64,000 bases of DNA from Labedaea sp. (GCA_045806965.1 JBJMIG010000059.1:2656-66655); one strand, 5' to 3'; positions 9,695-62,339 are shown, counted from the first letter of the stretch. The notes: generated by a model from the letters alone, not told the origin. Numbers and translations are program-made.

Positions 9695-9812
9695 TTCACA
9701 GCGCAAGGTGACATTGCGCTGTTAGAACCGTAGGAAGGTCACCTTCCGCTGTATCGGCGGTCGAGCGCGGCGTCGGCTCGGCGGTACAGCGCAAGGTGAC
9801 ATTGCGCTGTAC
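9695..9812. repeat. composite palindromic repeat, locus R1 (3 hairpin cores)
   Basis: ACAGCGCAAGGTGACATTGCGCTGT at 9698-9722 and again at 9786-9810. Variant GGAAGGTCACCTTCCGCTGT at 9733-9752. Confidence 0.85.
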
Positions 9813-9909
9813 GTCGGCCACCGGCGGGTGGTGTCTTTCGCCCGGCGGTAGCAAGGACGACCTGTCCGGCGATGACATAAGCACAGATGCTGGCGCGCGA
9901 GGGCTGCCG

Positions 9910-12552
9910 ATGAGCACAGTGGAGCACGGTCACACCGCCGTGCTTGATCGACCCTGGCCGTTTGTCGGCCGCGAGCGCGAGCTTGCCCGGGTGGCGGCCG
10001 CCCTGGCCCGGCCGGACGCCGCCGGTCTGCTGTTCGCCGGGCCCGCGGGGGTGGGCAAGACCCGGCTGGCCACCGAGTGCGCCATGATCGCCGAGCGGGT
10101 CGGTTTCCGCACCGCCCGGGTGCTGGCCACCCGCGCCGCCGCCGACGTCCCGCTCGGCGCGCTGGCCCCGCTGCTGCCCGCGGACTCCCGGCGCAGCGGG
10201 CCGCACGGCAACTGGCTGCGGGCCGCCGCGGACGCGATCGCCGGCGGCCCGGACCCGCTGCTGCTCCTGGTCGACGACGCGCACCTGCTGGACAATGCCT
10301 CGGCCACGGTGGTTCAGCAGCTCGCCGCTCCCGACCGGGCGTTCGTGGTGCTCACCACCCGAACCGGGTTTCCGGCACCGGAACCCTTGCTGGCGCTGTG
10401 GAAGGACGCCATCGTCGAGCGTCTCGACCTCGCCCCGCTGACCAGGCGTGATGTCGACCAGGTGCTGGACAAGGTGCTCGGCGGCCCCATTGACGGAGCC
10501 GCCCGGCTCGAGCTGTTCCAGGCCAGCCAGGGCAACGCGCTGTTCCTGCACGAGCTGGTGCTCGGCGGGCTGGACACCGAGATCCTGCACCGCGCGCGGG
10601 GCGTGTGGCGGCTGACCAAGCGACTGGCCAGCTCGCCGCGGCTGATCGAACTGGTGCAGGCCCGGCTGGTCGACCTCTACCGGGCCGAGCGCGAGCTGCT
10701 TGAGCTGCTGGCCGTCGGCGAGCCGCTGCCGTGGGAGATCGTCGCCCGGTTCGCCGAGCCGGACATGGTGGACAAGCTGGAGCGGCAGAGCCTGGTGCAG
10801 ACCACCCAGCAGCGCAGCGGCCTCCAGGTGAGCCTGGCTCATCCGCTCTACGGCGAGGTGCTGCGCGACCAGCTGACCGCGCTTGGCCGGATGGCGACGA
10901 GCCGCCGGCTGGCTGAGGCGGCCGGCGGAGTCGAGCTGGACCGGGTCGGCGCCCTGCAGCTGGCCGTCTGGCAGCTCGACGGCGGCGGCACGATCGATCC
11001 GACGATCATGGTGGACGCGGCGAACGGCGCCCGCCGGGCCGGAAACCTGCCGCTGGCCGAGCGCCTGGCCACGGCCGCGGTCGACGCGGGCGCCGGGGTC
11101 ACGGCGGAGTTGTTGCAGGCCAAGGTGCTCGGTGAACGCGGTTGGCAGGAACGGGCCCAGGAGCTGCTGGCCGAGCTGGCCGGGCGGGCCGGCACCGACG
11201 AGGAGCGGATCGCGGTCACCATCGAGCGGGCCCGCGCGCTGCTCTACTGGCTCGGCCGGGGTGCGGAGGCGGCCCAGACCCTGGACGATGCGGCCGAACC
11301 GCTCACCGGAGCACTTCTCGACCAGCTCAACGCGCACCGCGGCCTGATCGCGTTGATGCGCGGCCGGATCGCCGACGCGCTCAGCACGGCGACCGGCTCG
11401 GCCGGCACGGCTGGCACGACCGCCCCTGGGCGCGGGTACGCCACCAGCGCGGCCACCGCCGCGGTGGCCGCGGCGCTCGCCGGGCAGTCGGCCCGGGCGA
11501 CCGCCTACGTGGAACGAGCCGAGCACGGCCGGGAGCCGGGCCGCGCCCGGCTGGCCCAGATCGTGACGCTGATCGAGTCCGGCCGGCTGGCCGAGGCGGA
11601 CACCGCCGCGACGGTGCTCTACGACCGGTCGCTGCAGGTGCGCAGCCGGACCGGGCAGGCCTGGGTGGCGATGCTGCGCGGCCGGCTCGAGCTGCTCACC
11701 GGTCAGCTCGGCCGGGCCGAGCACGCCTTCGCCGAGGGCGCCGCGATCGCCGCCGAGATCGGCCAGCTCGCGCTGCGCCGGTGGTGCGCGGCCGGAATCG
11801 CGCTGGCCGCGAGCCAACGCGGGGACCTCACCCGGACCAGGTCCGCGATCCAGGAGCTGGACGCGTTGCCGGACACCGACCTGCACCTGCTCGCCGCGGA
11901 CGAGTTCCGGGCCAGGGCGTGGGCCGCCATGCTGACCGGGAAGCTCGCGCGGGCCAAGGAGTTGCTCCGCGAGGGGGCCGAGTCGGCCCGGCGGGGCGGG
12001 ACCGCGGCGCTGGCCGCGGCCGCCTGGCACGACCTGGCCCGGCTCGGCGACCCGGAAGCCGCCAAGCCGCTGGTGGAGCTGGCCACCAGGCTGGACAACC
12101 CGCTGATCGCGGCCCGCGCCACCGCGGTCGGGGCGATGATCGACCACGAGCCGGACCGGCTGGCCGAGGCCGCGGGGCGGTTCGAGGCGATGAGCGCGCT
12201 GCTGCTCGCCGCCGAGTCGAGCGCCGCGGCCGCCGGCGAGTACCGGCGCCGGCAGGACGGCCGGGCGTCGGACCGGATGGCCGACCGGGCGCATCTGCTG
12301 TCCGACCGCTGCGACCGGGCGCACACGCCGGGCCTCACGCTCGCCGGTCCGGTGGCGGAGTTGACCAGCCGGGAGCGGGAGATCGCCGCGCTGGCCGGGA
12401 CCGGCAGCTCGAACCGGGAAATCGCCGACGCGCTCACCGTCTCGGTGCGTACCGTGGAAACACATCTGCAACGTGTGTACACCAAGCTGGGGGTGACCAG
12501 CCGGACCGGACTGGCCAGCGTCCTACGTACCAGGGGGCACAAACCTACGTAG
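9910..12552 (+). CDS. large ATP-binding LuxR-family (LAL/MalT-like) transcriptional regulator
   Basis: ATG 9910 after GAGGG. Walker A GPAGVGKTRLA near the N-terminus. C-terminal LuxR HTH (LTSREREIAALAGTGSSNREIADALTVSVRTVETHL). Confidence 0.8.
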   Translation: MSTVEHGHTAVLDRPWPFVGRERELARVAAALARPDAAGLLFAGPAGVGKTRLATECAMIAERVGFRTARVLATRAAADVPLGALAPLLPADSRRSGPHGNWLRAAADAIAGGPDPLLLLVDDAHLLDNASATVVQQLAAPDRAFVVLTTRTGFPAPEPLLALWKDAIVERLDLAPLTRRDVDQVLDKVLGGPIDGAARLELFQASQGNALFLHELVLGGLDTEILHRARGVWRLTKRLASSPRLIELVQARLVDLYRAERELLELLAVGEPLPWEIVARFAEPDMVDKLERQSLVQTTQQRSGLQVSLAHPLYGEVLRDQLTALGRMATSRRLAEAAGGVELDRVGALQLAVWQLDGGGTIDPTIMVDAANGARRAGNLPLAERLATAAVDAGAGVTAELLQAKVLGERGWQERAQELLAELAGRAGTDEERIAVTIERARALLYWLGRGAEAAQTLDDAAEPLTGALLDQLNAHRGLIALMRGRIADALSTATGSAGTAGTTAPGRGYATSAATAAVAAALAGQSARATAYVERAEHGREPGRARLAQIVTLIESGRLAEADTAATVLYDRSLQVRSRTGQAWVAMLRGRLELLTGQLGRAEHAFAEGAAIAAEIGQLALRRWCAAGIALAASQRGDLTRTRSAIQELDALPDTDLHLLAADEFRARAWAAMLTGKLARAKELLREGAESARRGGTAALAAAAWHDLARLGDPEAAKPLVELATRLDNPLIAARATAVGAMIDHEPDRLAEAAGRFEAMSALLLAAESSAAAAGEYRRRQDGRASDRMADRAHLLSDRCDRAHTPGLTLAGPVAELTSREREIAALAGTGSSNREIADALTVSVRTVETHLQRVYTKLGVTSRTGLASVLRTRGHKPT

Positions 12553-23250: not shown

Positions 23251-23307
23251 GCCCCATTAGCTCAGATTCCGACAAAGGCCCGGTCAACGCGAGGTGACGG
23301 GCCGGAA

Positions 23308-23576
23308 TCAACCCAGCGAAATCAGAAAGGCCCGCCACCCCGAGCGGTCGATGGACAGTTCGCCGACGGTGGGATTCTTCGAGTCCCGAACCCCCACCCG
23401 CTGGGCACCACCCCGGCCCACCTCGACACAGTTGGTGTTCTCGCCGCTGAAACTGCTCTTGTGCCAACCGACTTCGACGCAGTCGGTGTTGCTGTCGCTC
23501 AAACTGCTCTTGTGCCAGGCGATCTCGACACAGTTGGTGTTGCTGTCGCTGAAGCTGCTCTTCCGCCAGGTGGTCA
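23308..23576 (-). CDS. DUF397 domain protein with a triplicated N-terminal motif
   Basis: GTG 23576 after GAAGGAAGGGG. Three tandem copies of W[RH]KSS[FL]S..NT[ND]CVE[IV] followed by VRDSKNPTVGELSIDRSGWRAF. Lies downstream of an XRE gene, as is usual for this family. Confidence 0.75.
23417..23569. repeat. 3 x 51-bp in-frame tandem repeat inside the DUF397 gene
   Basis: Units 23417-23467, 23468-23518 and 23519-23569. Each encodes one W[RH]KSS[FL]S..NT[ND]CVE[IV][AG] motif. Confidence 0.85.
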
Positions 23577-23599
23577 CGGCCGGAACCCCTTCCTTCGGG

Positions 23600-24460
23600 T
23601 CACACCAGGCCGGCCGCGATCGTGCGCAGCACCTCGGCCGAGCGATCCGGAGCGTGTGCGACCGACAGCAGGCCGTCCCAGGCCAGCTTATAGGCCTGGA
23701 CATCCCCTGGGGCGTCCAGATACAGGCTGGCCACCTTGTTCTCCAGATGGACGATGCTCGGCAGCCGGGCATAGTCCATCACCACGAACGGACCGTTCAT
23801 CCCGGAATGTGCGCCGACCTCGCGAGGAATCAGCCGGATCGTGATGCCGCGCCGGCCCGCCGACTCGATCAGATACCCGATCTGCTCCCGCATGACGTCG
23901 GAGCCGCCGACCCGCTGGTGCAGCGCCGCCTCGTGCAACACCACGTCGAGGCGCGGCGACCGGGGCTGCCGCAGCAATGCCTGCCGGCTGATTCGTGCCG
24001 CAACCCGGTCGTCCACGACCTGTTCGGACAGGCTCAGATCGGCGGCCTGGATGACCGCTCTGGCGTAGGGGAAGGTCTGTAGCAGGCCGGGGACCAGCAG
24101 CGGCTCGTAGTTGTAGAGCACGGTGGCGTCCTGCTCGAAGCCGATCCACTTCTCCAGGTCCTCGTGTACCTGCAACTGGCCCCGGTCCAGGAAGCCCGGC
24201 TTCAGCGCCTCCCCGTGCAGTTCCATCATGGCCGCCCGGACCGACCGGGACGCGCCGTAGATGGTCAGCAACGAGGCCAGGTCGTCCCGGCTGATTCCGC
24301 GCTTGCCCGACTCGGCCCGGGAGATCGTGCTCGGCGACACCCCGATCCGCTTCGCCACCTGCGACATGGTCAGCCCGGCGTCCACCCGCAACCGGCTCAG
24401 CACCATGCACAGGCGGCGGGTCCGCACGGTGTGGCTCGTCCTGTCCTTCACCCGTGCCAC
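23600..24460 (-). CDS. XRE-family HTH regulator (WhiJ/AbaA-like, DUF5753 C-terminal domain)
   Basis: HTH LTMSQVAKRIGVSPSTISRAESGKR. Start uncertain (GTG 24460 or 24451). The track start at 24544 is probably over-extended. Confidence 0.8.
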   Translation of the reverse strand: MARVKDRTSHTVRTRRLCMVLSRLRVDAGLTMSQVAKRIGVSPSTISRAESGKRGISRDDLASLLTIYGASRSVRAAMMELHGEALKPGFLDRGQLQVHEDLEKWIGFEQDATVLYNYEPLLVPGLLQTFPYARAVIQAADLSLSEQVVDDRVAARISRQALLRQPRSPRLDVVLHEAALHQRVGGSDVMREQIGYLIESAGRRGITIRLIPREVGAHSGMNGPFVVMDYARLPSIVHLENKVASLYLDAPGDVQAYKLAWDGLLSVAHAPDRSAEVLRTIAAGLV

Positions 24461-55490: not shown

Positions 55491-55526
55491 TCTGGTCTAC
55501 CTGGGGCCGGTCCGGCTACATTAATT

Positions 55527-55545
55527 GTTAGGAAGTTTTCCTAAC
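55527..55545. promoter_or_regulatory. perfect 8-bp inverted repeat GTTAGGAA-GTT-TTCCTAAC, CsnR(ROK)-operator-like
   Basis: Lies in a conspicuously AT-rich patch 40 nt upstream of the GH2 start codon. The inner 13-mer AGGAAGTTTTCCT differs at one position from the CsnR box AGGAAANTTTCCT as I recall it. Confidence 0.5.
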
Positions 55546-55584
55546 CAATGTTCCGGTAACCGGTGCACGATCCAGGAGGGCGCC

Positions 55585-58500
55585 GTGGAGTTCCCTGCCA
55601 TCCCGAAGAGGTTTCCCTCGATCCTGGCCGCGACGATGCTCGTGGCGGCCGGCCTGGCCGTGCCGCCGGCCGCGGCGGCCGCACCAAGCGCCACGGTCAC
55701 GGTGACCGCCGCACCCGGCGAGTCCACCGCCATCCCCGGCTTCCTGCTCCGCTCGTCGGCTGCCACCCCGGACGACGGCGCGACGATCTCCACCCCGGGC
55801 TACCGTACCGCCGGCTGGCTGCCGGTCCCGGCCCGATCCACGGTGTTCGCCGGCCAACTGGCGAACGGCCAGTTTCCCAACCCGTACTTCTCCACCAACA
55901 TGCGCAACGTCCCGACCGCGGACTACACCGTGCCGTGGTGGTACCGCGCGGACCTCACCCTCGGCAGCGAGACCGGCCTGCGCACCTACCTGAACCTGAC
56001 CGGCGTCCTGGCCAGGGCCGACGTGTTCGTCAACGGCAGCCAGATCGCCGGCAACGCCGAGGTGGCCGGCGCCTACACCACCCACGAGTTCGACGTGACC
56101 GCCCTGGTGCGCGCCGGAACGAACAGCCTCGCGGTGAAGGTCTACCCCAACGATCCCAACCGGGACCTGACCATGGGCTGGATCGACTGGCTACAGACCC
56201 CGCCGGACCGGAACATGGGGATCGTCCGCGACGTGCTGGTGCACCGCGGCGGCGGCGTGGCGCTGCGCGACACGCACGTGGTCACCGTACTCAACGCGGC
56301 CAGGGACCGGGCCAGCCTCACGGTGAAGACCCAGGTGCGCAACGACACCAGCGGATCGTTGTCCGCCATGCTCACCGGAACCGTTGCGGGACAAACACTC
56401 GCTCAGACCGTCAGCCTGGCCGCGCACGAGACCCGGACGGTCAGCTTCCCCGTGGTCACGGTGCCGAACCCGGCGCTGTGGTGGCCGGCCGGGATGGGTG
56501 CGCAGTCGAGGTACGACCTCGACCTGTCCGCCTCGGTGTCCGGCGGCGTCTCGGACACCGCGCACGAACGGTTCGGTGTTCGTGAGGTCAAGGCGGTGCT
56601 GGACGGCAGCGGGCACCGGCGCTACAGCGTCAACGGCCGGCCGCTCCTGATCAAAGGCGGTGGCTGGTCGCCGGACCTGTTGCTGCGCTGGGATTCCCGC
56701 TATGTCGAGGACAAGCTGCGCGCCGTGCTCGACCTGGGGCTCAACACCGTCCGGCTGGAGGGGCACATCGAGTCCAGTGACTTCTTCGACCTCACCGACC
56801 AACTCGGCATCCTCACCATGCCCGGTTGGGAATGCTGCGACAAGTGGGAAGGCGAGGTGAACGGCAGCGAGCCGGGTGAGCGCTGGACCTCGGCCGACTT
56901 CGTCACCGCTAAGGACTCCATGGCCGCCGAGGCGCGGCTGCTGCGCGACCACCCGTCGGTGATCTCGTTCCTGATCGGCAGCGACTTCGCGCCCAACGCC
57001 ACCCAGGAACGCAACTACCTCGACGCGCTCACCGCCGCCGACTGGCCGAACCCGGTCATCGCCTCGGCCGCAGACCGGTCCGCGCCGGTCAGCGGCAACT
57101 CCGGGATGAAGATGAACGGCCCGTACGACTGGATTCCGCCGAACTACTGGTACGACAAGGCGCACTCGGACGGCGGCGGCGCATGGGGCTTCGCCTCGGA
57201 GATCAGCGCCGGGCCGGACGTGCCGACCATGGACACGCTGCGCCGGATGATGACCACCAGCGAGCTGAACACGTTGTGGCAGAACTTCAACGCCACCCAG
57301 TACCACCGCTCGCAGTCCAGCACGTTCAACACCTTGAAGATCTTCGACAACGCACTGGTTGGCCGCTACGGCACGGTTTCCAGCCTGGACGACTACGTGC
57401 GCAAGGCCCAACTCGCCCAGTACGAGAACGTGCGCGCGCAGTTCGAGGCCTACGGTCGCAACTTCACCGACTCCAGCAACCCGGCCGACGGGGTCATCTA
57501 CTGGATGCTCAACAGCGGCTGGACCTCGCTGCACTGGCAGTTGTTCGACTACTACCTCGACCAGAACGGCGCCTACTACGGCGCGAAGAAGGCCGGCGAG
57601 CCGCTGCACGTGCAGTACTCCTACGACAACCGCGGCGTCGTGGTGGTGAACTCCAGGCACGGCGCGGCATCCGGGCTCACCGCGCGGGTCGATCTGTTCA
57701 ATGTGGACGGCACGAGCAAGTTCTCCCAGACGGCCAGCGGGCTGACCGCGCCCGGCGACGGCGGACGGGTGACCGCGTTGACCATCCCGGCTTCGGTCAG
57801 CGGGCTCTCCACCACCTACCTGGCCCGGCTACTGCTGATCGACTCGTCCGGCGCCGAGGTCAGCCGAAACGTCTATTGGCTCTCCACCAAGGCCGACGTG
57901 ATCGACTGGGCGAACAACGACTGGTTCTTCGCGCCCACCACCGCGTTCGCCGATCTCAAGGGCCTCGCCGGCATGGCGGCCGCGCCGATCTCGGCGACCG
58001 CGTCCACGGCCACCTCGGGCGAGGTCACCACGACCCGGGTCACGCTGCGCAACACCGGAACCGGCCGCACACCCGCGCTCTACCTGGACGCGCACGTGCT
58101 GGCCGGGGGCACCCCGGTGTTGCCGATCTCGTGGAACGACAACGCGGTCAGCCTGTGGCCCGGCGAGTCAACCACGCTCACCGCCAGCTACCGCACCACC
58201 GACCTGCACGGTGCGGCACCGTCGGTGCGCATCGCCGGCTGGAACACCGCGCCGTTGACCATTCCCGGCGACGGCGGCACCCCGCCATCGGTGCATCGCC
58301 ACGAGGCCGAGGACGCACAGCTCTCCCAAGGGGTGGCCGAGGCGAACCACACCGGCTTCTCCGGCACCGGCTTCGTCAACTACGACAACGTCGCCGGCGG
58401 CTTCGTCCAGTTCACCATCACCCCGGCGACCGCCGGTCCGGCCACGCTGACCCTGCGCTACAGCAACGGAACCGCCACCAACCGGCCGATGGACGTCACG

Positions 58501-58671
58501 GTGAACGGCACCACGGTGGCCACCGCGGTGTCCTTCCCGAGCACGACGACCTGGGACAGCTGGGCGAGCGTGACCGTGCCGGCGACGCTCACCGCGGGCT
58601 CGAACACCGTCCGCGCCACGGCCACCACGGCCACCGGTGGTCCCAACCTCGATTACCTGGAAGCCCCCTGA
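55585..58671 (+). CDS. secreted GH2 exo-beta-D-glucosaminidase-like enzyme (CsxA-like) with a C-terminal CBM35/CBM6-type module
   Basis: GTG 55585 after CAGGAGG. Signal peptide. Resembles GH2 exo-chitosanases along its length (YTVPWWYRADL, GWIDWLQTPPDRNMGI). C-terminus HEAEDAQLSQG...NLDYLE is a carbohydrate-binding module. Confidence 0.85.
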   Translation: MEFPAIPKRFPSILAATMLVAAGLAVPPAAAAAPSATVTVTAAPGESTAIPGFLLRSSAATPDDGATISTPGYRTAGWLPVPARSTVFAGQLANGQFPNPYFSTNMRNVPTADYTVPWWYRADLTLGSETGLRTYLNLTGVLARADVFVNGSQIAGNAEVAGAYTTHEFDVTALVRAGTNSLAVKVYPNDPNRDLTMGWIDWLQTPPDRNMGIVRDVLVHRGGGVALRDTHVVTVLNAARDRASLTVKTQVRNDTSGSLSAMLTGTVAGQTLAQTVSLAAHETRTVSFPVVTVPNPALWWPAGMGAQSRYDLDLSASVSGGVSDTAHERFGVREVKAVLDGSGHRRYSVNGRPLLIKGGGWSPDLLLRWDSRYVEDKLRAVLDLGLNTVRLEGHIESSDFFDLTDQLGILTMPGWECCDKWEGEVNGSEPGERWTSADFVTAKDSMAAEARLLRDHPSVISFLIGSDFAPNATQERNYLDALTAADWPNPVIASAADRSAPVSGNSGMKMNGPYDWIPPNYWYDKAHSDGGGAWGFASEISAGPDVPTMDTLRRMMTTSELNTLWQNFNATQYHRSQSSTFNTLKIFDNALVGRYGTVSSLDDYVRKAQLAQYENVRAQFEAYGRNFTDSSNPADGVIYWMLNSGWTSLHWQLFDYYLDQNGAYYGAKKAGEPLHVQYSYDNRGVVVVNSRHGAASGLTARVDLFNVDGTSKFSQTASGLTAPGDGGRVTALTIPASVSGLSTTYLARLLLIDSSGAEVSRNVYWLSTKADVIDWANNDWFFAPTTAFADLKGLAGMAAAPISATASTATSGEVTTTRVTLRNTGTGRTPALYLDAHVLAGGTPVLPISWNDNAVSLWPGESTTLTASYRTTDLHGAAPSVRIAGWNTAPLTIPGDGGTPPSVHRHEAEDAQLSQGVAEANHTGFSGTGFVNYDNVAGGFVQFTITPATAGPATLTLRYSNGTATNRPMDVTVNGTTVATAVSFPSTTTWDSWASVTVPATLTAGSNTVRATATTATGGPNLDYLEAP

Positions 58672-58688: not shown

Positions 58689-58726
58689 AACCCGGCGGCC
58701 GCGCTCCGGCGCGGTCGCCGGGTTGC
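58689..58726 (+). terminator. long GC-rich hairpin downstream of the GH2 gene
   Basis: CAACCCGGCG ... CGCCGGGTTG outer 10-bp stem with further internal pairing (GCCGCGC/GCGCGGT), 18 nt after the stop. Confidence 0.45.
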
Positions 58727-58740
58727 GATATAACGACGGC

Positions 58741-59205
58741 ATGTCACGCCGGAAAGAGATCACCATGACGGCCGGGGAGATCGAGGCGTTCCTCGCCGAG
58801 GAGCTGACCGCTCAGGTCGCGACGATCGGACCGAACGGACGGCCGCATCTGGTGCCGGTGTTCTACGTCCCGCGCGGCACCGGCATCGCCACGTGGACCT
58901 ACGCGAAGTCGCAGAAGGTGGCCAACCTGCGCCGGCTGCCGCAGGCGACGGTCCTGGTCGAGGCCGGCACGGAGTACGCCCGACTACGCGGTGTCTCCAT
59001 GGAGTGCGACGTCGAGATCCTCGAGGATGTGGAGCAGGTCGCGGCGATCGGGCTGGAGCTGACCGGCCGGATGCTCGACAACGCGGACGTCGCCACCTCG
59101 GCCGGGCAGTTCGTCCGGGCGCAGGCGCAGAAGCGGGTCGGGCTGGTGTTCACCCCGACCAAGGTGGTCAGCTGGGACCACGCCAAGCTGGCCGGCGCCT
59201 ACTGA
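58741..59205 (+). CDS. pyridoxamine 5'-phosphate oxidase family (split-barrel, probably F420/FMN-binding) protein
   Basis: MSRRKEITMTAGEIEAFLAEELTAQVATIGPNGRPHLVPV is a typical PPOX-class N-terminus. Confidence 0.75.
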   Translation: MSRRKEITMTAGEIEAFLAEELTAQVATIGPNGRPHLVPVFYVPRGTGIATWTYAKSQKVANLRRLPQATVLVEAGTEYARLRGVSMECDVEILEDVEQVAAIGLELTGRMLDNADVATSAGQFVRAQAQKRVGLVFTPTKVVSWDHAKLAGAY

Positions 59206-59486
59206 GGCTTGACCCACGAGCCCAGCGTGATGATCCACTCGCGGACGATGCGCTCCTCGGCGATCTCCTCGGTGGTGTACGGGTCGGCGGCCAGTAGCAG
59301 GTTGAGCTCGTCGATGTCGACGACCTCGTAGACGGCGAAGCCCGCGCGATCGTCGGCGAACGGGCCGCCGGCCACGACCTTGCCCTTGTCTGCGAGGTCA
59401 CGCAGGTAGTCCCGGTGCCGGGGGCGCGCGGCGAGTAACCGGTCGCGATCAGTGACGTACCGCGTCTCGACGGTGAACCAGGCCAT
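59199..59486 (-). CDS. YciI-family protein
   Basis: ATG 59486 with AGGAGG 7 nt upstream. 95 aa. AGGPFADD motif. Confidence 0.75.
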   Translation of the reverse strand: MAWFTVETRYVTDRDRLLAARPRHRDYLRDLADKGKVVAGGPFADDRAGFAVYEVVDIDELNLLLAADPYTTEEIAEERIVREWIITLGSWVKPQ

Positions 59487-59520
59487 GGGCAAGCCTCCTG
59501 CTCCCCGGTAGGGTCCTCAC

Positions 59521-60120
59521 GTGACAGGGGATGGTATAGACCGGACCGAGGGCAGCGCCGAGCGCAGTGTGGAACGCACGCTGTCCCGGTTGCACGCGAT
59601 CGACACCAAGAGCGTGGCCCCTCAGGTTCCACAGACGCCGCTGACGCTCGAGGATCTCTACCGCACACACCGCATGCGCCTGATCCGGCTGGCCCTGCTG
59701 CTGGTCGACGAGCCGGCCACGGCCGAGGACGTGGTCCAGGAGGCGTTCACCGGCCTGCACCGCAACTGGGGAAACCTGCGCGATGCCGCCGCGGCGGTCG
59801 GCTACCTGCGCACCGCGGTCGTGAACGGGTCACGCAGCGTGCTGCGCCGGCGCAAGACCGCGCGCGAGTACACCCCGCCGCATTCGGTCAACGCCAGGTC
59901 CGCCGAGAGCCTCGCGATGCTGACCGCCGAGCACCAGTCGGTTGTTCGCGCACTGTCGCATCTCCCGCCACGACAACGAGAAGTGCTCGTGCTGCGGTAC
60001 TACGGCAACCTGTCGGAGTCCGAGATCGCCGAGGCGGCCGGCATCTCGAAAGGCACCGTCAAGTCCACCGCGTCGCGTGCTCTCGAGGCACTCCAGAAGA
60101 TCATGAACCAGCCGCACTGA
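59521..60120 (+). CDS. SigE-family ECF RNA polymerase sigma factor
   Basis: Region 2 (AEDVVQEAFTGLHRNWGNL) and region 4 (RQREVLVLRYYGNLSESEIAEAAGISKGTVKST). The track GTG 59521 lies only 34 nt from the divergent yciI start, so the real start may be further downstream, for example GTG near 59613. Confidence 0.8.
   Translation: MTGDGIDRTEGSAERSVERTLSRLHAIDTKSVAPQVPQTPLTLEDLYRTHRMRLIRLALLLVDEPATAEDVVQEAFTGLHRNWGNLRDAAAAVGYLRTAVVNGSRSVLRRRKTAREYTPPHSVNARSAESLAMLTAEHQSVVRALSHLPPRQREVLVLRYYGNLSESEIAEAAGISKGTVKSTASRALEALQKIMNQPH
59531..59542. promoter_or_regulatory. dre-like (DasR/GntR-type) box, copy 1, ATGGTATAGACC
   Basis: Identical 12-mer to copy 2. TGGTATAGACC resembles the dre core TGGTCTAGACCA. 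Lies between the divergent yciI and ECF sigma genes. Confidence 0.4.
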
Positions 60121-60128
60121 CCCGAGCT

Positions 60129-60141
60129 ATGGTATAGACCA
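60129..60141. promoter_or_regulatory. dre-like (DasR/GntR-type) box, copy 2, ATGGTATAGACCA
   Basis: TGGTATAGACCA matches 11/12 of the dre core TGGTCTAGACCA. 43 nt upstream of the nagA ATG. Confidence 0.55.
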
Positions 60142-60183
60142 ATAGAGCGTTTGTTGGTCGTCACCGTGGAGGGTGGGTGCGGC

Positions 60184-61344
60184 ATGGCGGAACAGCTGAT
60201 TGCCGGTGGCAAAGTGGTGGCCCCCGAGGGTGTGTTCGACCCCGGGTGGGTTCTGGTGTCGGACGGCGTCATCGCGGCGGTCGGGACCGGCTCGGCACCA
60301 ACGGCCGGGACCGACGGTGCCCCGCCCGAGGTGCGCGACGCGACCGGCCACTGGGTGATGCCCGGCTTCGTCGACATCCACTGTCACGGCGGCGGCGGCG
60401 ACTCGTTCACCGACACCGACCCGGAGCACGTCCGCCGGGCCGTCGCCGCGCACCGCCGGCACGGCACCACCACCATCCTGGGCAGCCTGGTCTCCCGGCC
60501 GGTCCCCGAGCTGGCCAACCAGGTCGCCGCGCTGGCCGAGCTGACCGCCGACGGGCTGATCGCCGGCATCCACCTGGAGGGTCCGTTCCTGGCGGCGGCC
60601 CGGTGCGGCGCGCACGACCCGGCCATACTCCGCCCGCCGGACGACGAGTCGGTGCGGACCCTGCTCGCCGCCGGCAAGGGCGCGGTGCGGATGGTCACCA
60701 TCGCGCCCGAGCTGGACGGTGCGCTGCACGCGGTGAAACGACTGGTCGGCACCGGCGTGCTGGCCGCCGTCGGGCATACCGACGGTACCGGGGCGCAGGT
60801 CCTGTCCGCGGTCGACGCGGGCGCCACCGTTGCCACCCACCTGTTCAACGGCATGCGCCCGCTGCACCACCGCGAGCCCGGCCCGATCGGCATCCTGCTC
60901 GACGACGAGCGGGTCACCGTCGAGCTGATCTGCGATCTGGTGCACGTACACCCAAGCGTCATCCGGCTGGCCGCCCGGCACGCCGGAGCGCAGCGCACCG
61001 TGCTGGTCACCGACGCGATCGCCGCGGCGGGCGTCGGCGACGGGGTCTACGACGTCGGCGGGCTGGCCGTCACGGTGACCGACGGGGTGCCGACGCTGGC
61101 CGGCGGAGCGTCGCTGGCCGGCAGCACGCTGACCATGGACGCGGCGTTCCGCAACCTGGTCCGCGGCTGCGGGCTGAGCGTGCGCGAGGCGGTCGCGGCC
61201 ACCTCCACCCAGCCGGCCGAGATCCTCGGCGTGGCCAAGGTCACCGGGTCGCTGACCGCCGGGCTCGCCGCCGACGTGGTGATCATGGACGAAAGCCTGC
61301 GGGCGGCGGCGGTCATGCACCAGGGCACCTGGGTCACAGACTAA
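60184..61344 (+). CDS. nagA: N-acetylglucosamine-6-phosphate deacetylase
   Basis: ATG 60184. GFVDIHCHGGGG metal site, HLEGPF, GHTD, HLFNGM motifs. Confidence 0.9.
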   Translation: MAEQLIAGGKVVAPEGVFDPGWVLVSDGVIAAVGTGSAPTAGTDGAPPEVRDATGHWVMPGFVDIHCHGGGGDSFTDTDPEHVRRAVAAHRRHGTTTILGSLVSRPVPELANQVAALAELTADGLIAGIHLEGPFLAAARCGAHDPAILRPPDDESVRTLLAAGKGAVRMVTIAPELDGALHAVKRLVGTGVLAAVGHTDGTGAQVLSAVDAGATVATHLFNGMRPLHHREPGPIGILLDDERVTVELICDLVHVHPSVIRLAARHAGAQRTVLVTDAIAAAGVGDGVYDVGGLAVTVTDGVPTLAGGASLAGSTLTMDAAFRNLVRGCGLSVREAVAATSTQPAEILGVAKVTGSLTAGLAADVVIMDESLRAAAVMHQGTWVTD

Positions 61345-61354
61345 CGTCGAGAGA

Positions 61355-61672
61355 GTGACGGACGACGCGGAGCGGTTGATCGCCGAGGCGCTGCGCGCGC
61401 AGGCGGCCCGCACGCCGCTGCCGTCGACCGAGTCCACCAGGGTGAACGCCGCGCCGGGCCTGGACGCGGGCAGCGGTTACGGCCTGCTCTCCGGCTCCGA
61501 CCGGCCGCTGTCGCTGCCGCTGCGACCGCCCGGCACGGTCCGGCTCGACGACGGTGTCGGGACCGAGCGGATCGAGCCGGTGCCACGCACCGCGGCGCTG
61601 GCGATTCTGCTGCTCGCCGTGCTGCTCGGCCTGGCCGCCGGTGCCGTGGTCGGACTGCTCACCCTGTTGTGA
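61355..61672 (+). CDS. hypothetical C-terminally membrane-anchored protein
   Basis: GTG 61355. N-terminus MTDDAERLIAEALRAQAARTP resembles partner proteins usually encoded after SigE-family sigma genes. C-terminal TM ALAILLLAVLLGLAAGAVVGLL. Confidence 0.4.
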   Translation: MTDDAERLIAEALRAQAARTPLPSTESTRVNAAPGLDAGSGYGLLSGSDRPLSLPLRPPGTVRLDDGVGTERIEPVPRTAALAILLLAVLLGLAAGAVVGLLTLL

Positions 61673-61697
61673 ACCGAGCCCAGGTAACGTTTCGGGT

Positions 61698-62339
61698 ATG
61701 CCCGTGAACACCATGTCGATCCTGCCGTCGTGGCTAGATCCGGACGCCATCCTCAGCGGTCTCGGCGCGTTCGTCGTGATCGGCGTCTGCCTGATCATCT
61801 TCGCCGAGTGCGGGCTACTGGTCGGCTTCTTCCTGCCGGGTGACTCGCTGCTGTTCACGGCCGGCCTGTACATCGAGCGCGGCTCGATCAGCACGCCGCT
61901 CTGGCTGATGTGCGTGCTGGTCGCGGTGTGCGCGTTCCTCGGCAACGTGTCCGGGTACTGGATCGGGGCGAAGGCCGGCCCGACGCTGTTCAACCGGCCG
62001 AACTCGCGGCTGTTCAAGCGCGAGCACGTGGACCGCACGCACGAGTTCTTCGAACGCTACGGCAACCGGGCGATCGTGCTCGGCCGGTTCGTGCCGATCG
62101 TGCGCACGTTCATCACGGCGATGGCCGGCGTCGGCCGGATGGACCCGAAGCGCTACTTCACCTACTCCGCGATCGGCGGCGTGCTCTGGGCGAGCGGCGT
62201 CACCGTGCTCGGCTACTACCTCGGCAAGATCGACTTCGTGCACGAGCACATCGAGCTGATCCTGATCCTGGTCGTGCTGGTCTCGCTGATCCCGATCGCG
62301 ATCGAGCTGGTCAGGGCGCGCCGGTCGAAGGTCGCTTAG
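61698..62339 (+). CDS. DedA/VTT-domain membrane protein
   Basis: FAECGLLVGFFLPGDSLLF and GRFVPIVRTF motifs. ATG 61698; ATG 61713 is also possible. Confidence 0.85.
   Translation: MPVNTMSILPSWLDPDAILSGLGAFVVIGVCLIIFAECGLLVGFFLPGDSLLFTAGLYIERGSISTPLWLMCVLVAVCAFLGNVSGYWIGAKAGPTLFNRPNSRLFKREHVDRTHEFFERYGNRAIVLGRFVPIVRTFITAMAGVGRMDPKRYFTYSAIGGVLWASGVTVLGYYLGKIDFVHEHIELILILVVLVSLIPIAIELVRARRSKVA

What the first reader, a model, noticed from the sequence alone, without database searches (positions are those of the whole stretch)
59531..60141. Identical 12-mer ATGGTATAGACC flanks an ECF sigma gene; both copies resemble DasR-responsive elements, one just upstream of nagA
ATGGTATAGACC occurs at 59531-59542 and 60129-60140, 598 nt apart. 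Both copies sit in AT-enriched spots. The second extends to TGGTATAGACCA, an 11/12 match to the core of the Streptomyces dre consensus ACTGGTCTAGACCACT, and sits 43 nt before the nagA start. nagA is a classic DasR/NagR target. The first copy lies only 45 nt from the divergent yciI start and inside the 5' end of the sigma ORF as drawn by the track. This argues that the sigma gene really starts further downstream and that the box is in its promoter. It would tie an ECF sigma factor to amino-sugar sensing.
Basis: partly seen in the sequence, partly recalled or inferred. Interest (0 to 1): 0.6.

Follow-up and report, generated by a model that had tools for sequence, protein, structure and literature searches.

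The report
nagA repressor box plus weak twin
One of the two identical 12-mers is the ordinary, family-wide operator that represses the amino-sugar gene nagA. The other is a young, weak look-alike inside the first codons of the neighbouring sigma-factor gene, whose annotated start is correct.

Summary
ATGGTATAGACC occurs exactly twice, at 59531-42 and 60129-40, and a repeated 12-mer this rare within 1 kb appeared in 0 of 100 random windows.

The two copies are not equivalent.

Copy 2 (16-mer 60128-60143, TATGGTATAGACCAAT) scores 23.2 bits on a matrix built from 42 published S. coelicolor DasR sites. A site of at least 16 bits sits before nagA or nagK-nagA in all 80 Pseudonocardiaceae loci examined. 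It is the known DasR/NagR-type nagA operator.

Copy 2 also lies inside an unusually stable hairpin (z -7.5). The hairpin pairs the end of the sigma gene with the nagA ribosome-binding site.

Copy 1 (59530-59545, GATGGTATAGACCGGA) scores 11.9 bits, about what chance gives once per 64 kb. It is present only in this genome and its closest relative.

Copy 1 occupies codons 4-8 of a leaderless SigE-family sigma gene. That gene's GTG start and -10 box are conserved, so the claim that the gene starts further downstream is rejected.

Rare codons kept in both genomes and intact guanine contacts leave about a 35-40% chance that copy 1 is a weak second operator for sigma and/or yciI.

The scan noted the same sigma-dre-nagA layout on another genome (e1-4179798).

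The genome's DasR gene and any transcript data therefore went unchecked.

The parts
59199..59486 (-). yciI-like gene, divergent from the sigma gene. ATG at 59486, with an AGGAGG ribosome-binding site 7 nt upstream.
   Evidence: Pfam YCII PF03795, E 3e-13. Minus-strand read. Divergent from sigma in most relatives.
59509..59514 (+). -10-like hexamer TAGGGT of the sigma promoter, 6 nt before the GTG start. It also contains the in-frame stop TAG at 59509-11.
   Evidence: CCGG-TAnnnT followed 5-8 nt later by GTG/ATG was found by regex in 33 of 76 relatives, and is visible by eye in others. Its role as a promoter is inferred.
59521..60120 (+). SigE-family ECF sigma factor gene (199 aa), predicted leaderless.
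   Evidence: TIGR02983 at 156 bits against a cutoff of 141.6; Sigma70_r2 and Sigma70_r4_2 domains. Start conserved.
59530..59545 (.). Copy 1: dre-like 16-mer GATGGTATAGACCGGA (12-mer at 59531-42). It covers codons 4-8 (GAT GGT ATA GAC CGG) of sigma, 45-56 nt upstream of the yciI ATG.
   Evidence: 11.9 bits on the S. coelicolor dre PWM, second best in the window. Present only in the window and L001. Built from rare codons.
60108..60187 (+). Three-tier RNA hairpin spanning the sigma-nagA junction. The outer stem pairs the sigma stop region (GCCGCAC-UGA-CCC) with GGGUGGGUGCGGC next to the nagA start, and the middle stems take in the nagA ribosome-binding site. The dre lies in the inner stems.
   Evidence: -49.9 kcal/mol, z -7.5, with 0 of 200 shuffles as stable. 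Same architecture in L001, z -4.5. 27 shared pairs, none broken. Absent or weak in other genera.
60128..60143 (.). Copy 2: nagA operator (dre) TATGGTATAGACCAAT (12-mer at 60129-40).
   Evidence: 23.2 bits, with no equal in 3 Mb of random sequence. An orthologous site of at least 16 bits occurs in 80 of 80 loci.
60168..60173 (+). nagA ribosome-binding site GGAGGG, 10 nt before the ATG. Five of its six bases are paired in the junction hairpin.
   Evidence: Sequence; structure.
60184..61344 (+). nagA, N-acetylglucosamine-6-phosphate deacetylase (386 aa).
   Evidence: TIGR00221 equivalog at 262.5 bits against a cutoff of 225.65.
61355..61672 (+). Small ORF (105 aa) with a C-terminal hydrophobic helix, probably in the same operon.
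   Evidence: No family hit. The first roughly 40 aa are conserved in L001, L006-8 and L051. Translation.
61698..62339 (+). DedA/VTT-family membrane protein. The start is uncertain (61554, 61641 or 61698). It follows nagA in relatives too.
   Evidence: PF09335, E 2e-23. DedA NF008102, E 8e-50, below that model's cutoff. Same gene after nagA in L019 and L008.

Best explanation
The two 12-mers have different standing.

Copy 2 (60128-60143) is the conserved operator of the nagA operon (nagA, a small ORF, and dedA). A dimer of the DasR/NagR-type GntR/HutC repressor is inferred to bind it when amino-sugar phosphates are low. Its arginines would read the G pairs at positions +/-4 and +/-5. It is inferred to block transcription at or just upstream of nagA, and GlcNAc-6-P or GlcN-6-P would release it.

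Copy 1 (59530-59545) is a young sequence restricted to this lineage. It arose by a few substitutions in the variable N-terminal codons (G-D-G-I-D) of a leaderless SigE-family sigma gene whose annotated GTG start is correct. It keeps all four contacted guanines but has a poor right flank. At most it is a low-affinity auxiliary operator. It would act at about +10 to +25 of the sigma transcript and over the likely -10 of the divergent yciI promoter. I put that at about 35-40%. Otherwise it is neutral.

In this lineage the sigma stop codon lies 7 nt from the 16-mer dre (8 nt from the 12-mer). The junction RNA folds into a very stable hairpin that hides the nagA ribosome-binding site. On read-through transcripts this would either terminate or insulate sigma transcription, or it would couple nagA translation to sigma translation.

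Shown here: sequence, scores, conservation, the start codon and the RNA fold. Inferred: repressor identity, binding, promoter positions and the hairpin's function.
For: Copy 2:
- It scores 23.2 bits on a PWM built from 42 ChIP/EMSA-supported S. coelicolor dre sites (Table 1 of PMC4398421). No position reached that score in 3 Mb of random sequence.
- A site of at least 16 bits lies before nagA (39 loci) or before a ROK kinase-nagA pair (41 loci) in all 80 Pseudonocardiaceae loci. The core is (T/C)TGGTATAGACCAAT.
- DasR binds the nagA promoter and represses nagA in S. erythraea, a member of the same family (PMC11076491).

Guanine contacts: the NagR-DNA structure shows base contacts at G-7, G-5 and G-4 (PMC4333415). 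Both copies keep G at +/-4 and +/-5.

Start codon: there is an in-frame TAG at 59509-11. A TAnnnT -10 lies 6-8 nt before GTG/ATG in many genera. The alternative GTG at 59569 is GTC in six relatives.

Copy 1:
- It is the second-best PWM hit in the window.
- It is made of the rare codons GAT, GGT and ATA; ATA accounts for 3 of 303 Ile codons.
- All three rare codons are kept in L001, although 32% of third positions differ and only 8 of 25 other A/T-ending codons are shared.

Hairpin.
Against: Copy 1:
- At 11.9 bits it matches the chance rate of 9.3e-6 per position, about 0.6 hits per 64 kb. Only 1 of 42 bound S. coelicolor sites scores lower.
- Its G at +6 is seen in 1 of 84 half-sites. The L001 version scores only 9.0 bits.
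- It is absent from the other Actinophytocola-clade genomes and from metagenomic relatives. These carry related coding sequences such as GACGGTGTACAC and GATGGCATGGAG, so only three or four substitutions were needed to make the box.
- A similar 12-bit dre-like motif in Amycolatopsis turned out to be ordinary coding sequence.

Repressor: no DasR gene lies in the window or near nagA in relatives.

Promoters and structure: no promoter or terminator was found by the E. coli-type consensus scan. The hairpin is supported by only two sequences and has no double compensatory change.
Confidence: 0.8

Rival explanations
1. Copy 1 is a working second DasR operator. Bound repressor sits at +10 to +25 of the leaderless sigma transcript and over the yciI -10. 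The ECF sigma and/or yciI would then be repressed until amino-sugar phosphates accumulate. Together with copy 2 this would place the whole sigma-nagA-dedA stretch under GlcNAc control.
For: The 12-mer core, from -7 to +5, is identical to that of the proven-type local operator, and all four contacted G's are present. It lies in a 34-nt divergent promoter region next to the nag operon; the local chance of a hit of at least 11.9 bits within +/-100 nt is about 0.002. The rare codons GAT-GGT-ATA are retained in two genomes, p about 0.03. It co-occurs with the lineage-specific tight sigma-nagA junction and hairpin. S. coelicolor DasR gives ChIP signals near the ECF genes sigJ and bldN (PMC4398421).
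Against: The PWM score is low and the right flank is poor. It is seen in only two genomes. Its precursor sequence was already similar. The L001 flank is worse, at 9.0 bits.
Confidence: 0.37
2. Copy 1 is a neutral by-product of the coding sequence. The ancestral N-terminal codons G-D-G-(V/M/I)-(D/E/H) already resembled the left half of a dre and drifted into an exact 12-mer match without function.
For: Relatives carry GACGGTGTACAC (L007), GACGGCGCGAAC (L008), GATGGCATGGAG (L281) and GATGGCGTGCAA (L030) at the same codons. The PWM score is at background. Conservation between the window and L001 over 12 nt is expected in about 12% of cases at their level of divergence (computed from the numbers).
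Against: Three substitutions went toward A/T against a strong GC3 bias. The ATA codon is almost never used (3 of 303). The rare codons persisted in both lineages.
Confidence: 0.55
3. One reading: the sigma gene really starts downstream at GTG 59569, and copy 1 lies in its promoter or 5' untranslated region.
For: An in-frame GTG exists at 59569. The first 42 residues lie outside the sigma domains.
Against: GTG 59569 is GTC in L005, L006, L007, L008, L016 and L027. The residues AERS just upstream are conserved as protein as far out as Amycolatopsis. A conserved -10 lies 6-8 nt before the GTG/ATG that corresponds to 59521.
Confidence: 0.03
4. Copy 1 was copied from copy 2, or the reverse, by a short gene-conversion or repair event rather than evolving by point substitutions.
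For: The match is exact and includes the 5' A, which is specific to the Actinophytocola-clade version of the nagA site.
Against: Identity stops at exactly 12 nt, and the flanks are unrelated. Relatives show graded intermediates at the copy 1 position.
Confidence: 0.05
5. The boxes are read by a GntR/HutC paralogue other than the DasR orthologue, or by none.
For: The repressor gene was not found in the window or next to nagA in 80 relatives. The family variant has A at -2 and T/A at +/-7, unlike the S. coelicolor consensus.
Against: S. erythraea DasR is 72% identical to the S. coelicolor protein. It binds the nagA promoter, and its dre logo is reported as highly similar (PMC11076491).
Confidence: 0.08

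Closest known systems
DasR-responsive elements (dre) of the Streptomyces coelicolor nagKA and nagB promoters (consensus A(G/C)TGGTCTAGACCA(G/C)T; PMC4398421)
   Same: Copy 2 is a 16-bp near-palindrome with the TGGT...ACCA core. It lies upstream of nagA (nagK-nagA in half of the relatives) at -41 to -56 from the start codon. Its PWM score is as high as the best S. coelicolor sites.
   Different: The family variant has A rather than C at position -2, and T/A rather than G/C at +/-7. In this genome the site sits 7 nt after the stop codon of a sigma gene and inside a strong RNA hairpin.
DasR-nagA promoter interaction in Saccharopolyspora erythraea (PMC11076491)
   Same: Same bacterial family and an orthologous nagA locus. 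Saccharopolyspora loci in my set carry TTTGGTGTAGACCA(C/A)T before nagK-nagA or nagA. EMSA and repression are shown there.
   Different: The published work is on another genus. No second site at the neighbouring sigma gene is described, and none is present in the Saccharopolyspora loci I examined.
NagR (YvoA) operators of Bacillus subtilis nagAB and nagP, and the NagR-DNA crystal structure (PMC4333415)
   Same: It is a GntR/HutC dimer on a GTGGTCTAGACCAC-type palindrome, with arginines reading G-5 and G-4. Natural sites there are imperfect palindromes with one weaker half, as copy 1 is.
   Different: It is a different phylum. In Bacillus the weaker half usually loses one G, whereas copy 1 keeps both G pairs and deviates at +6 to +8.
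DasR ChIP signals at the ECF sigma genes sigJ and bldN in S. coelicolor (PMC4398421, Table 1)
   Same: It links the GlcNAc regulator to ECF sigma genes.
   Different: Those peaks have no recognisable dre and appear only late in growth. Here there is a dre-like sequence, but no binding data.

Membership tests
dre (DasR/NagR operator), copy 2 | Match to the 16-bp palindromic consensus | tested here: met
   23.2 bits, against a training range of 9.4 to 23.9. No hit as good in 3 Mb of random sequence.
dre (DasR/NagR operator), copy 2 | Position upstream of a GlcNAc or chitin utilisation gene, conserved in orthologous promoters | tested here: met
   Ends 43 nt before nagA. A site of at least 16 bits is present in 80 of 80 related loci.
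dre (DasR/NagR operator), copy 2 | Binding by the DasR/NagR repressor and release by GlcN-6-P or GlcNAc-6-P | not testable with these tools
   Published for S. erythraea and S. coelicolor nagA promoters (PMC11076491, PMC4398421). Not tested for this genome.
dre (DasR/NagR operator), either copy | A DasR/NagR (GntR/HutC) gene in the same genome | tested here: inconclusive
   tblastn with the S. coelicolor DasR sequence (read from the PDB alignment) found nothing in the window or the 80 nagA loci.
dre (DasR/NagR operator), copy 1 | Match to the 16-bp consensus above background | tested here: not met
   11.9 bits, which equals the mean best hit of random 64-kb windows (11.88). Chance rate is 9.3e-6 per position. 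Only 1 of 42 bound sites scores lower.
dre (DasR/NagR operator), copy 1 | Guanines at +/-4 and +/-5 that the repressor reads | tested here: met
   ATGGTAT|AGACCGG keeps GG and CC on both halves. Contacts taken from PMC4333415.
dre (DasR/NagR operator), copy 1 | Conservation at the orthologous position | tested here: not met
   Present only in the window and L001. Absent from L005-L008, L016, L027, L281 and all other genera.
SigE-family ECF sigma factor (TIGR02983) | Score above the curated cutoff, with regions 2 and 4 present | tested here: met
   156 bits against 141.55. PF04542 and PF08281 both hit.
Leaderless gene | -10 hexamer about 6-8 nt upstream of the start codon, no ribosome-binding site, transcript beginning at the start codon | tested here: inconclusive
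   TAGGGT lies 6 nt before the GTG, and this layout is conserved in many genera.
NagA (TIGR00221) | Equivalog score above cutoff | tested here: met
   262.5 bits against 225.65.

The most novel reading that the evidence does not exclude
In this lineage (the window and its closest relative) nagA has been drawn into the transcription unit of a SigE-type ECF sigma gene. The ancestral spacer shrank to 63 nt. A new dre evolved at +10 of the leaderless sigma promoter. A junction hairpin hides the nagA ribosome-binding site until ribosomes finishing sigma open it. DasR would then make an envelope-type ECF sigma, plus yciI and a DedA membrane protein, respond to cell-wall amino sugars.
Probability: 0.2. 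Interest if true: 0.5.

Novelty: new member of a known kind. Interest (0 to 1): 0.3.

Why it matters
Copy 2 adds a well-footprinted, family-wide example of the DasR/NagR nagA operator in Pseudonocardiaceae. It defines the local variant as TTGGTATAGACCAAT, but this is expected biology.

The value lies in three corrections and leads.

- The sigma gene is leaderless and correctly annotated.
- Copy 1 is a possible snapshot of a regulator site being born inside coding sequence. It can be tested cleanly by synonymous recoding.
- The dre sits in a strong, lineage-specific hairpin linking the end of the sigma gene to the nagA ribosome-binding site. This hints at insulation or translational coupling between an envelope-type sigma factor and amino-sugar recycling.

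Tried and rejected
I could not run a whole-genome dre scan, look up the DasR gene, or examine RNA reads.

- Search for a DasR gene. A GntR regex on the window and loci found nothing, but it would have missed DasR, whose helix reads VPPERTL. I replaced it with tblastn using the DasR sequence, which also found nothing. The search for related loci and the search for homologous proteins with S. coelicolor DasR returned only Streptomycetaceae, so no Pseudonocardiaceae DasR locus was obtained.

- Degenerate pattern scan. The only relevant hits were the L001 and L007 contigs.

- Metagenome search. A search with the sigma protein gave no relative closer than 84%, and none carried copy 1.

- Amycolatopsis motif. 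The conserved GCTGGTCTACACCGGC upstream of yciI looked like a second sigma-side dre, but it lies inside a coding region (WRLVYTGR) and was dropped.

- Repeat element. The junction hairpin is not a copy of the window's REP-like repeats; blastn-short found no other copy.

- Fused domain. The small ORF after nagA is not the detached N-terminus of the longer DedA protein of Lentzea.

- Consensus scan. The E. coli-type promoter and terminator scan found nothing.

Full report
**What is there**

The 12-mer ATGGTATAGACC occurs exactly at 59531-59542 and 60129-60140. There is no other copy in the window with 0 or 1 mismatch.

The local genes are as follows:

| Coordinates | Strand | Gene |
|---|---|---|
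| 58723-59205 | + | PNPOx-like gene |
| 59199-59486 | - | yciI-like gene |
| 59521-60120 | + | SigE-family ECF sigma gene (TIGR02983, 156 bits) |
| 60184-61344 | + | nagA (TIGR00221, 262 bits) |
| 61355-61672 | + | small membrane-anchored ORF |
| about 61698-62339 | + | DedA/VTT membrane protein |

A GH2 exo-beta-D-glucosaminidase lies just upstream at 55525-58671.

NagA relatives place the genome in Pseudonocardiaceae. The closest is an Actinophytocola MAG, L001, at 83% NagA and 92% sigma identity.

A repeated 12-mer this rare within 1 kb appeared in none of 100 random windows.

**Copy 2 is the nagA operator**

I built a palindromised weight matrix from the 42 distinct dre sites that I took from Table 1 of the S. 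coelicolor DasR ChIP study (PMC4398421).

- The 16-mer TATGGTATAGACCAAT at 60128-60143 scores 23.2 bits. This is at the top of the training range (9.4 to 23.9).
- No position in 3 Mb of Markov-random sequence reached that score.
- All 80 Pseudonocardiaceae nagA loci carry a site of at least 16 bits. In 39 it lies within 150 nt of nagA. In 41 it lies before a ROK kinase gene that precedes nagA, the nagK-nagA layout known from Streptomyces.
- The family core is (T/C)TGGTATAGACCAAT.
- The box follows nagA, not the sigma gene. Where other genes separate sigma and nagA (L005, L008), the box stays at nagA.
- In S. erythraea, a member of the same family, DasR shifts the nagA promoter and represses nagA (PMC11076491).

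**The sigma gene start is correct and the gene is probably leaderless**

- The reading frame opens right after an in-frame TAG at 59509-11, so GTG 59521 is the first possible start.
- That TAG is part of TAGGGT, a TAnnnT hexamer 6 nt before the GTG.
- The same CCGG-TAnnnT, followed 5-8 nt later by GTG or ATG, recurs in Actinophytocola, Lentzea, Saccharopolyspora, Actinokineospora, Allokutzneria and others. By established knowledge of actinobacterial leaderless genes, this places the transcript start at the start codon.
- The peptide AERS(V)E just upstream of it is conserved as protein as far out as Amycolatopsis.

Copy 1 is therefore not in an upstream promoter. It lies at about +10 to +25 of the transcript, in codons 4-8.

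It is also 45-56 nt upstream of the divergent yciI ATG. The two start codons are only 34 nt apart, so the yciI promoter must lie inside the sigma 5' end. The reverse complement of the box contains a TAnnnT (TACCAT) at a suitable distance. That last point is an inference.

**Is copy 1 an operator?**

Against:

- It scores 11.9 bits. This is second best in the window but equal to the mean best hit of random 64-kb windows (11.88).
- The chance rate is 9.3e-6 per position.
- Only 1 of 42 bound S. coelicolor sites scores lower.
- Its G at +6 occurs in 1 of 84 half-sites.
- The L001 version scores 9.0 bits.
- It is found only in the window and L001. Other clade members and the nearest metagenomic relative have related coding sequence at the same codons: L007 GACGGTGTACAC, L008 GACGGCGCGAAC and L281 GATGGCATGGAG. 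Three or four substitutions would have created the box.
- A comparable dre-like motif conserved in Amycolatopsis proved to be plain coding sequence.

For:

- The 12-mer covers positions -7 to +5 of the site and keeps G at +/-4 and +/-5 on both halves. These are bases that NagR reads (PMC4333415).
- The codons GAT, GGT and ATA are all disfavoured. In a sample of 8,519 window codons, ATA makes up 3 of 303 Ile codons, GGT 88 of 810 Gly codons, and GAT 42 of 480 Asp codons.
- All three rare codons are retained in L001, although 32% of third positions differ. Only 8 of 25 other A/T-ending codons are shared, which gives p about 0.03.
- The local chance of a hit this good within +/-100 nt of the sigma start is about 0.002.

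I put function at 35-40%.

The 85 nt spanning the sigma stop and the nagA start (60104-60188) fold into a three-tier hairpin of -49.9 kcal/mol. The z-score is -7.5, and none of 200 shuffles was as stable.

- The outer stem pairs GCCGCAC-UGA-CCC, which includes the sigma stop codon, with GGGUGGGUGCGGC just before the nagA ATG.
- The middle stems cover five of the six bases of the nagA ribosome-binding site.
- The two halves of the dre form the inner stems with a downstream partner.
- L001 has the same architecture, with z -4.5.
- The two sequences share 27 pairs. Two show one-sided compatible changes, none is broken, and most differences fall in unpaired columns.
- Other genera show z values mostly between +1.6 and -2.9, with -3.7 in L004.
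- The hairpin is not one of the window's REP-like repeats.

In this lineage the sigma stop lies 7 nt from the 16-mer dre, and the TAnnnT that abuts the dre in sister species has lost its final T.

Three lineage-specific traits therefore coincide: the tight junction, the hairpin and copy 1. One reading is that nagA expression here depends partly on the sigma promoter. The hairpin would then either terminate or insulate read-through, or couple nagA translation to sigma translation, and copy 1 would supply DasR control at the new promoter. This is a hypothesis. I put it at about 20%.

**Comparison and verdict**

Copy 2 is a member of the dre class by sequence, position and conservation. Binding could not be tested here.

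Copy 1 fails the score and conservation tests and passes only the guanine-contact test. It should not be filed as a dre, although it may work like a weak one.

The open-access library that I searched held no paper describing a canonical dre at an ECF sigma gene. S. coelicolor DasR does give non-canonical ChIP signals at sigJ and bldN.

The scan had already noted the same sigma-dre-nagA layout on another genome (e1-4179798), and the sigma-nagA-membrane protein order on this one (e1-4068518).

**Limits**

The DasR gene of this genome, the genome-wide background of dre-like sites and any transcript evidence therefore remain unchecked.

Noticed in passing
window 60104-60188; L001 1275-1364: A very stable hairpin (z -7.5 in the window, -4.5 in L001) encloses the nagA operator. 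It pairs the sigma stop-codon region with the nagA ribosome-binding site. It is specific to this lineage.
   Followed up: partly
window 59509-59523 and the orthologous sites in L001-L080: The SigE-family sigma gene has a conserved CCGG-TAnnnT hexamer 5-8 nt before its GTG/ATG start across many Pseudonocardiaceae genera. This is a family-wide leaderless layout.
   Followed up: partly
window 59521-62339: The gene order yciI (divergent), SigE-type sigma, dre, (nagK) nagA, DedA/VTT membrane protein is conserved across the family. DedA relatives include undecaprenyl-phosphate transporters, so the cluster has an overall cell-envelope flavour.
   Followed up: partly
window 59941-59985 (sigma codons 140-153): A run of A/T-ending codons (CCA CGA CAA CGA GAA ...) within region 4 of sigma is mostly shared with L001 (six of the nine A/T-ending codons), unlike most A/T-ending codons in the gene. 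There may be an embedded DNA or RNA signal.
   Followed up: no
window 23425-23542 and 9704-9805: Other rare AT-rich 12- to 16-mers are repeated within about 100 nt. GACACAGTTGGTGTT and AAACTGCTCTTGTG lie in the 23256-23603 gap. CAAGGTGACATTGC lies at the start of ORF 9712-12549. They look like paired regulator sites.
   Followed up: no
L030 2930-2961; L038 2920-2950: Actinokineospora loci carry two tandem dre sites, 15-16 nt apart start to start, before nagA.
   Followed up: no
L011 5101, L012 5097, L021 5164, L029 5177, L040 5035, L001 3621: Additional strong dre sites (18-23 bits) lie 1-2 kb downstream of nagA in several relatives, presumably before further regulon genes. The window has no equivalent strong site.
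   Followed up: no
L003 (JOAA01000011.1): A record titled Rhodococcus rhodnii NRRL B-16535 carries a nagA locus nearly identical in layout to those of Kibdelosporangium and Actinocrispum. The label looks doubtful.
   Followed up: no
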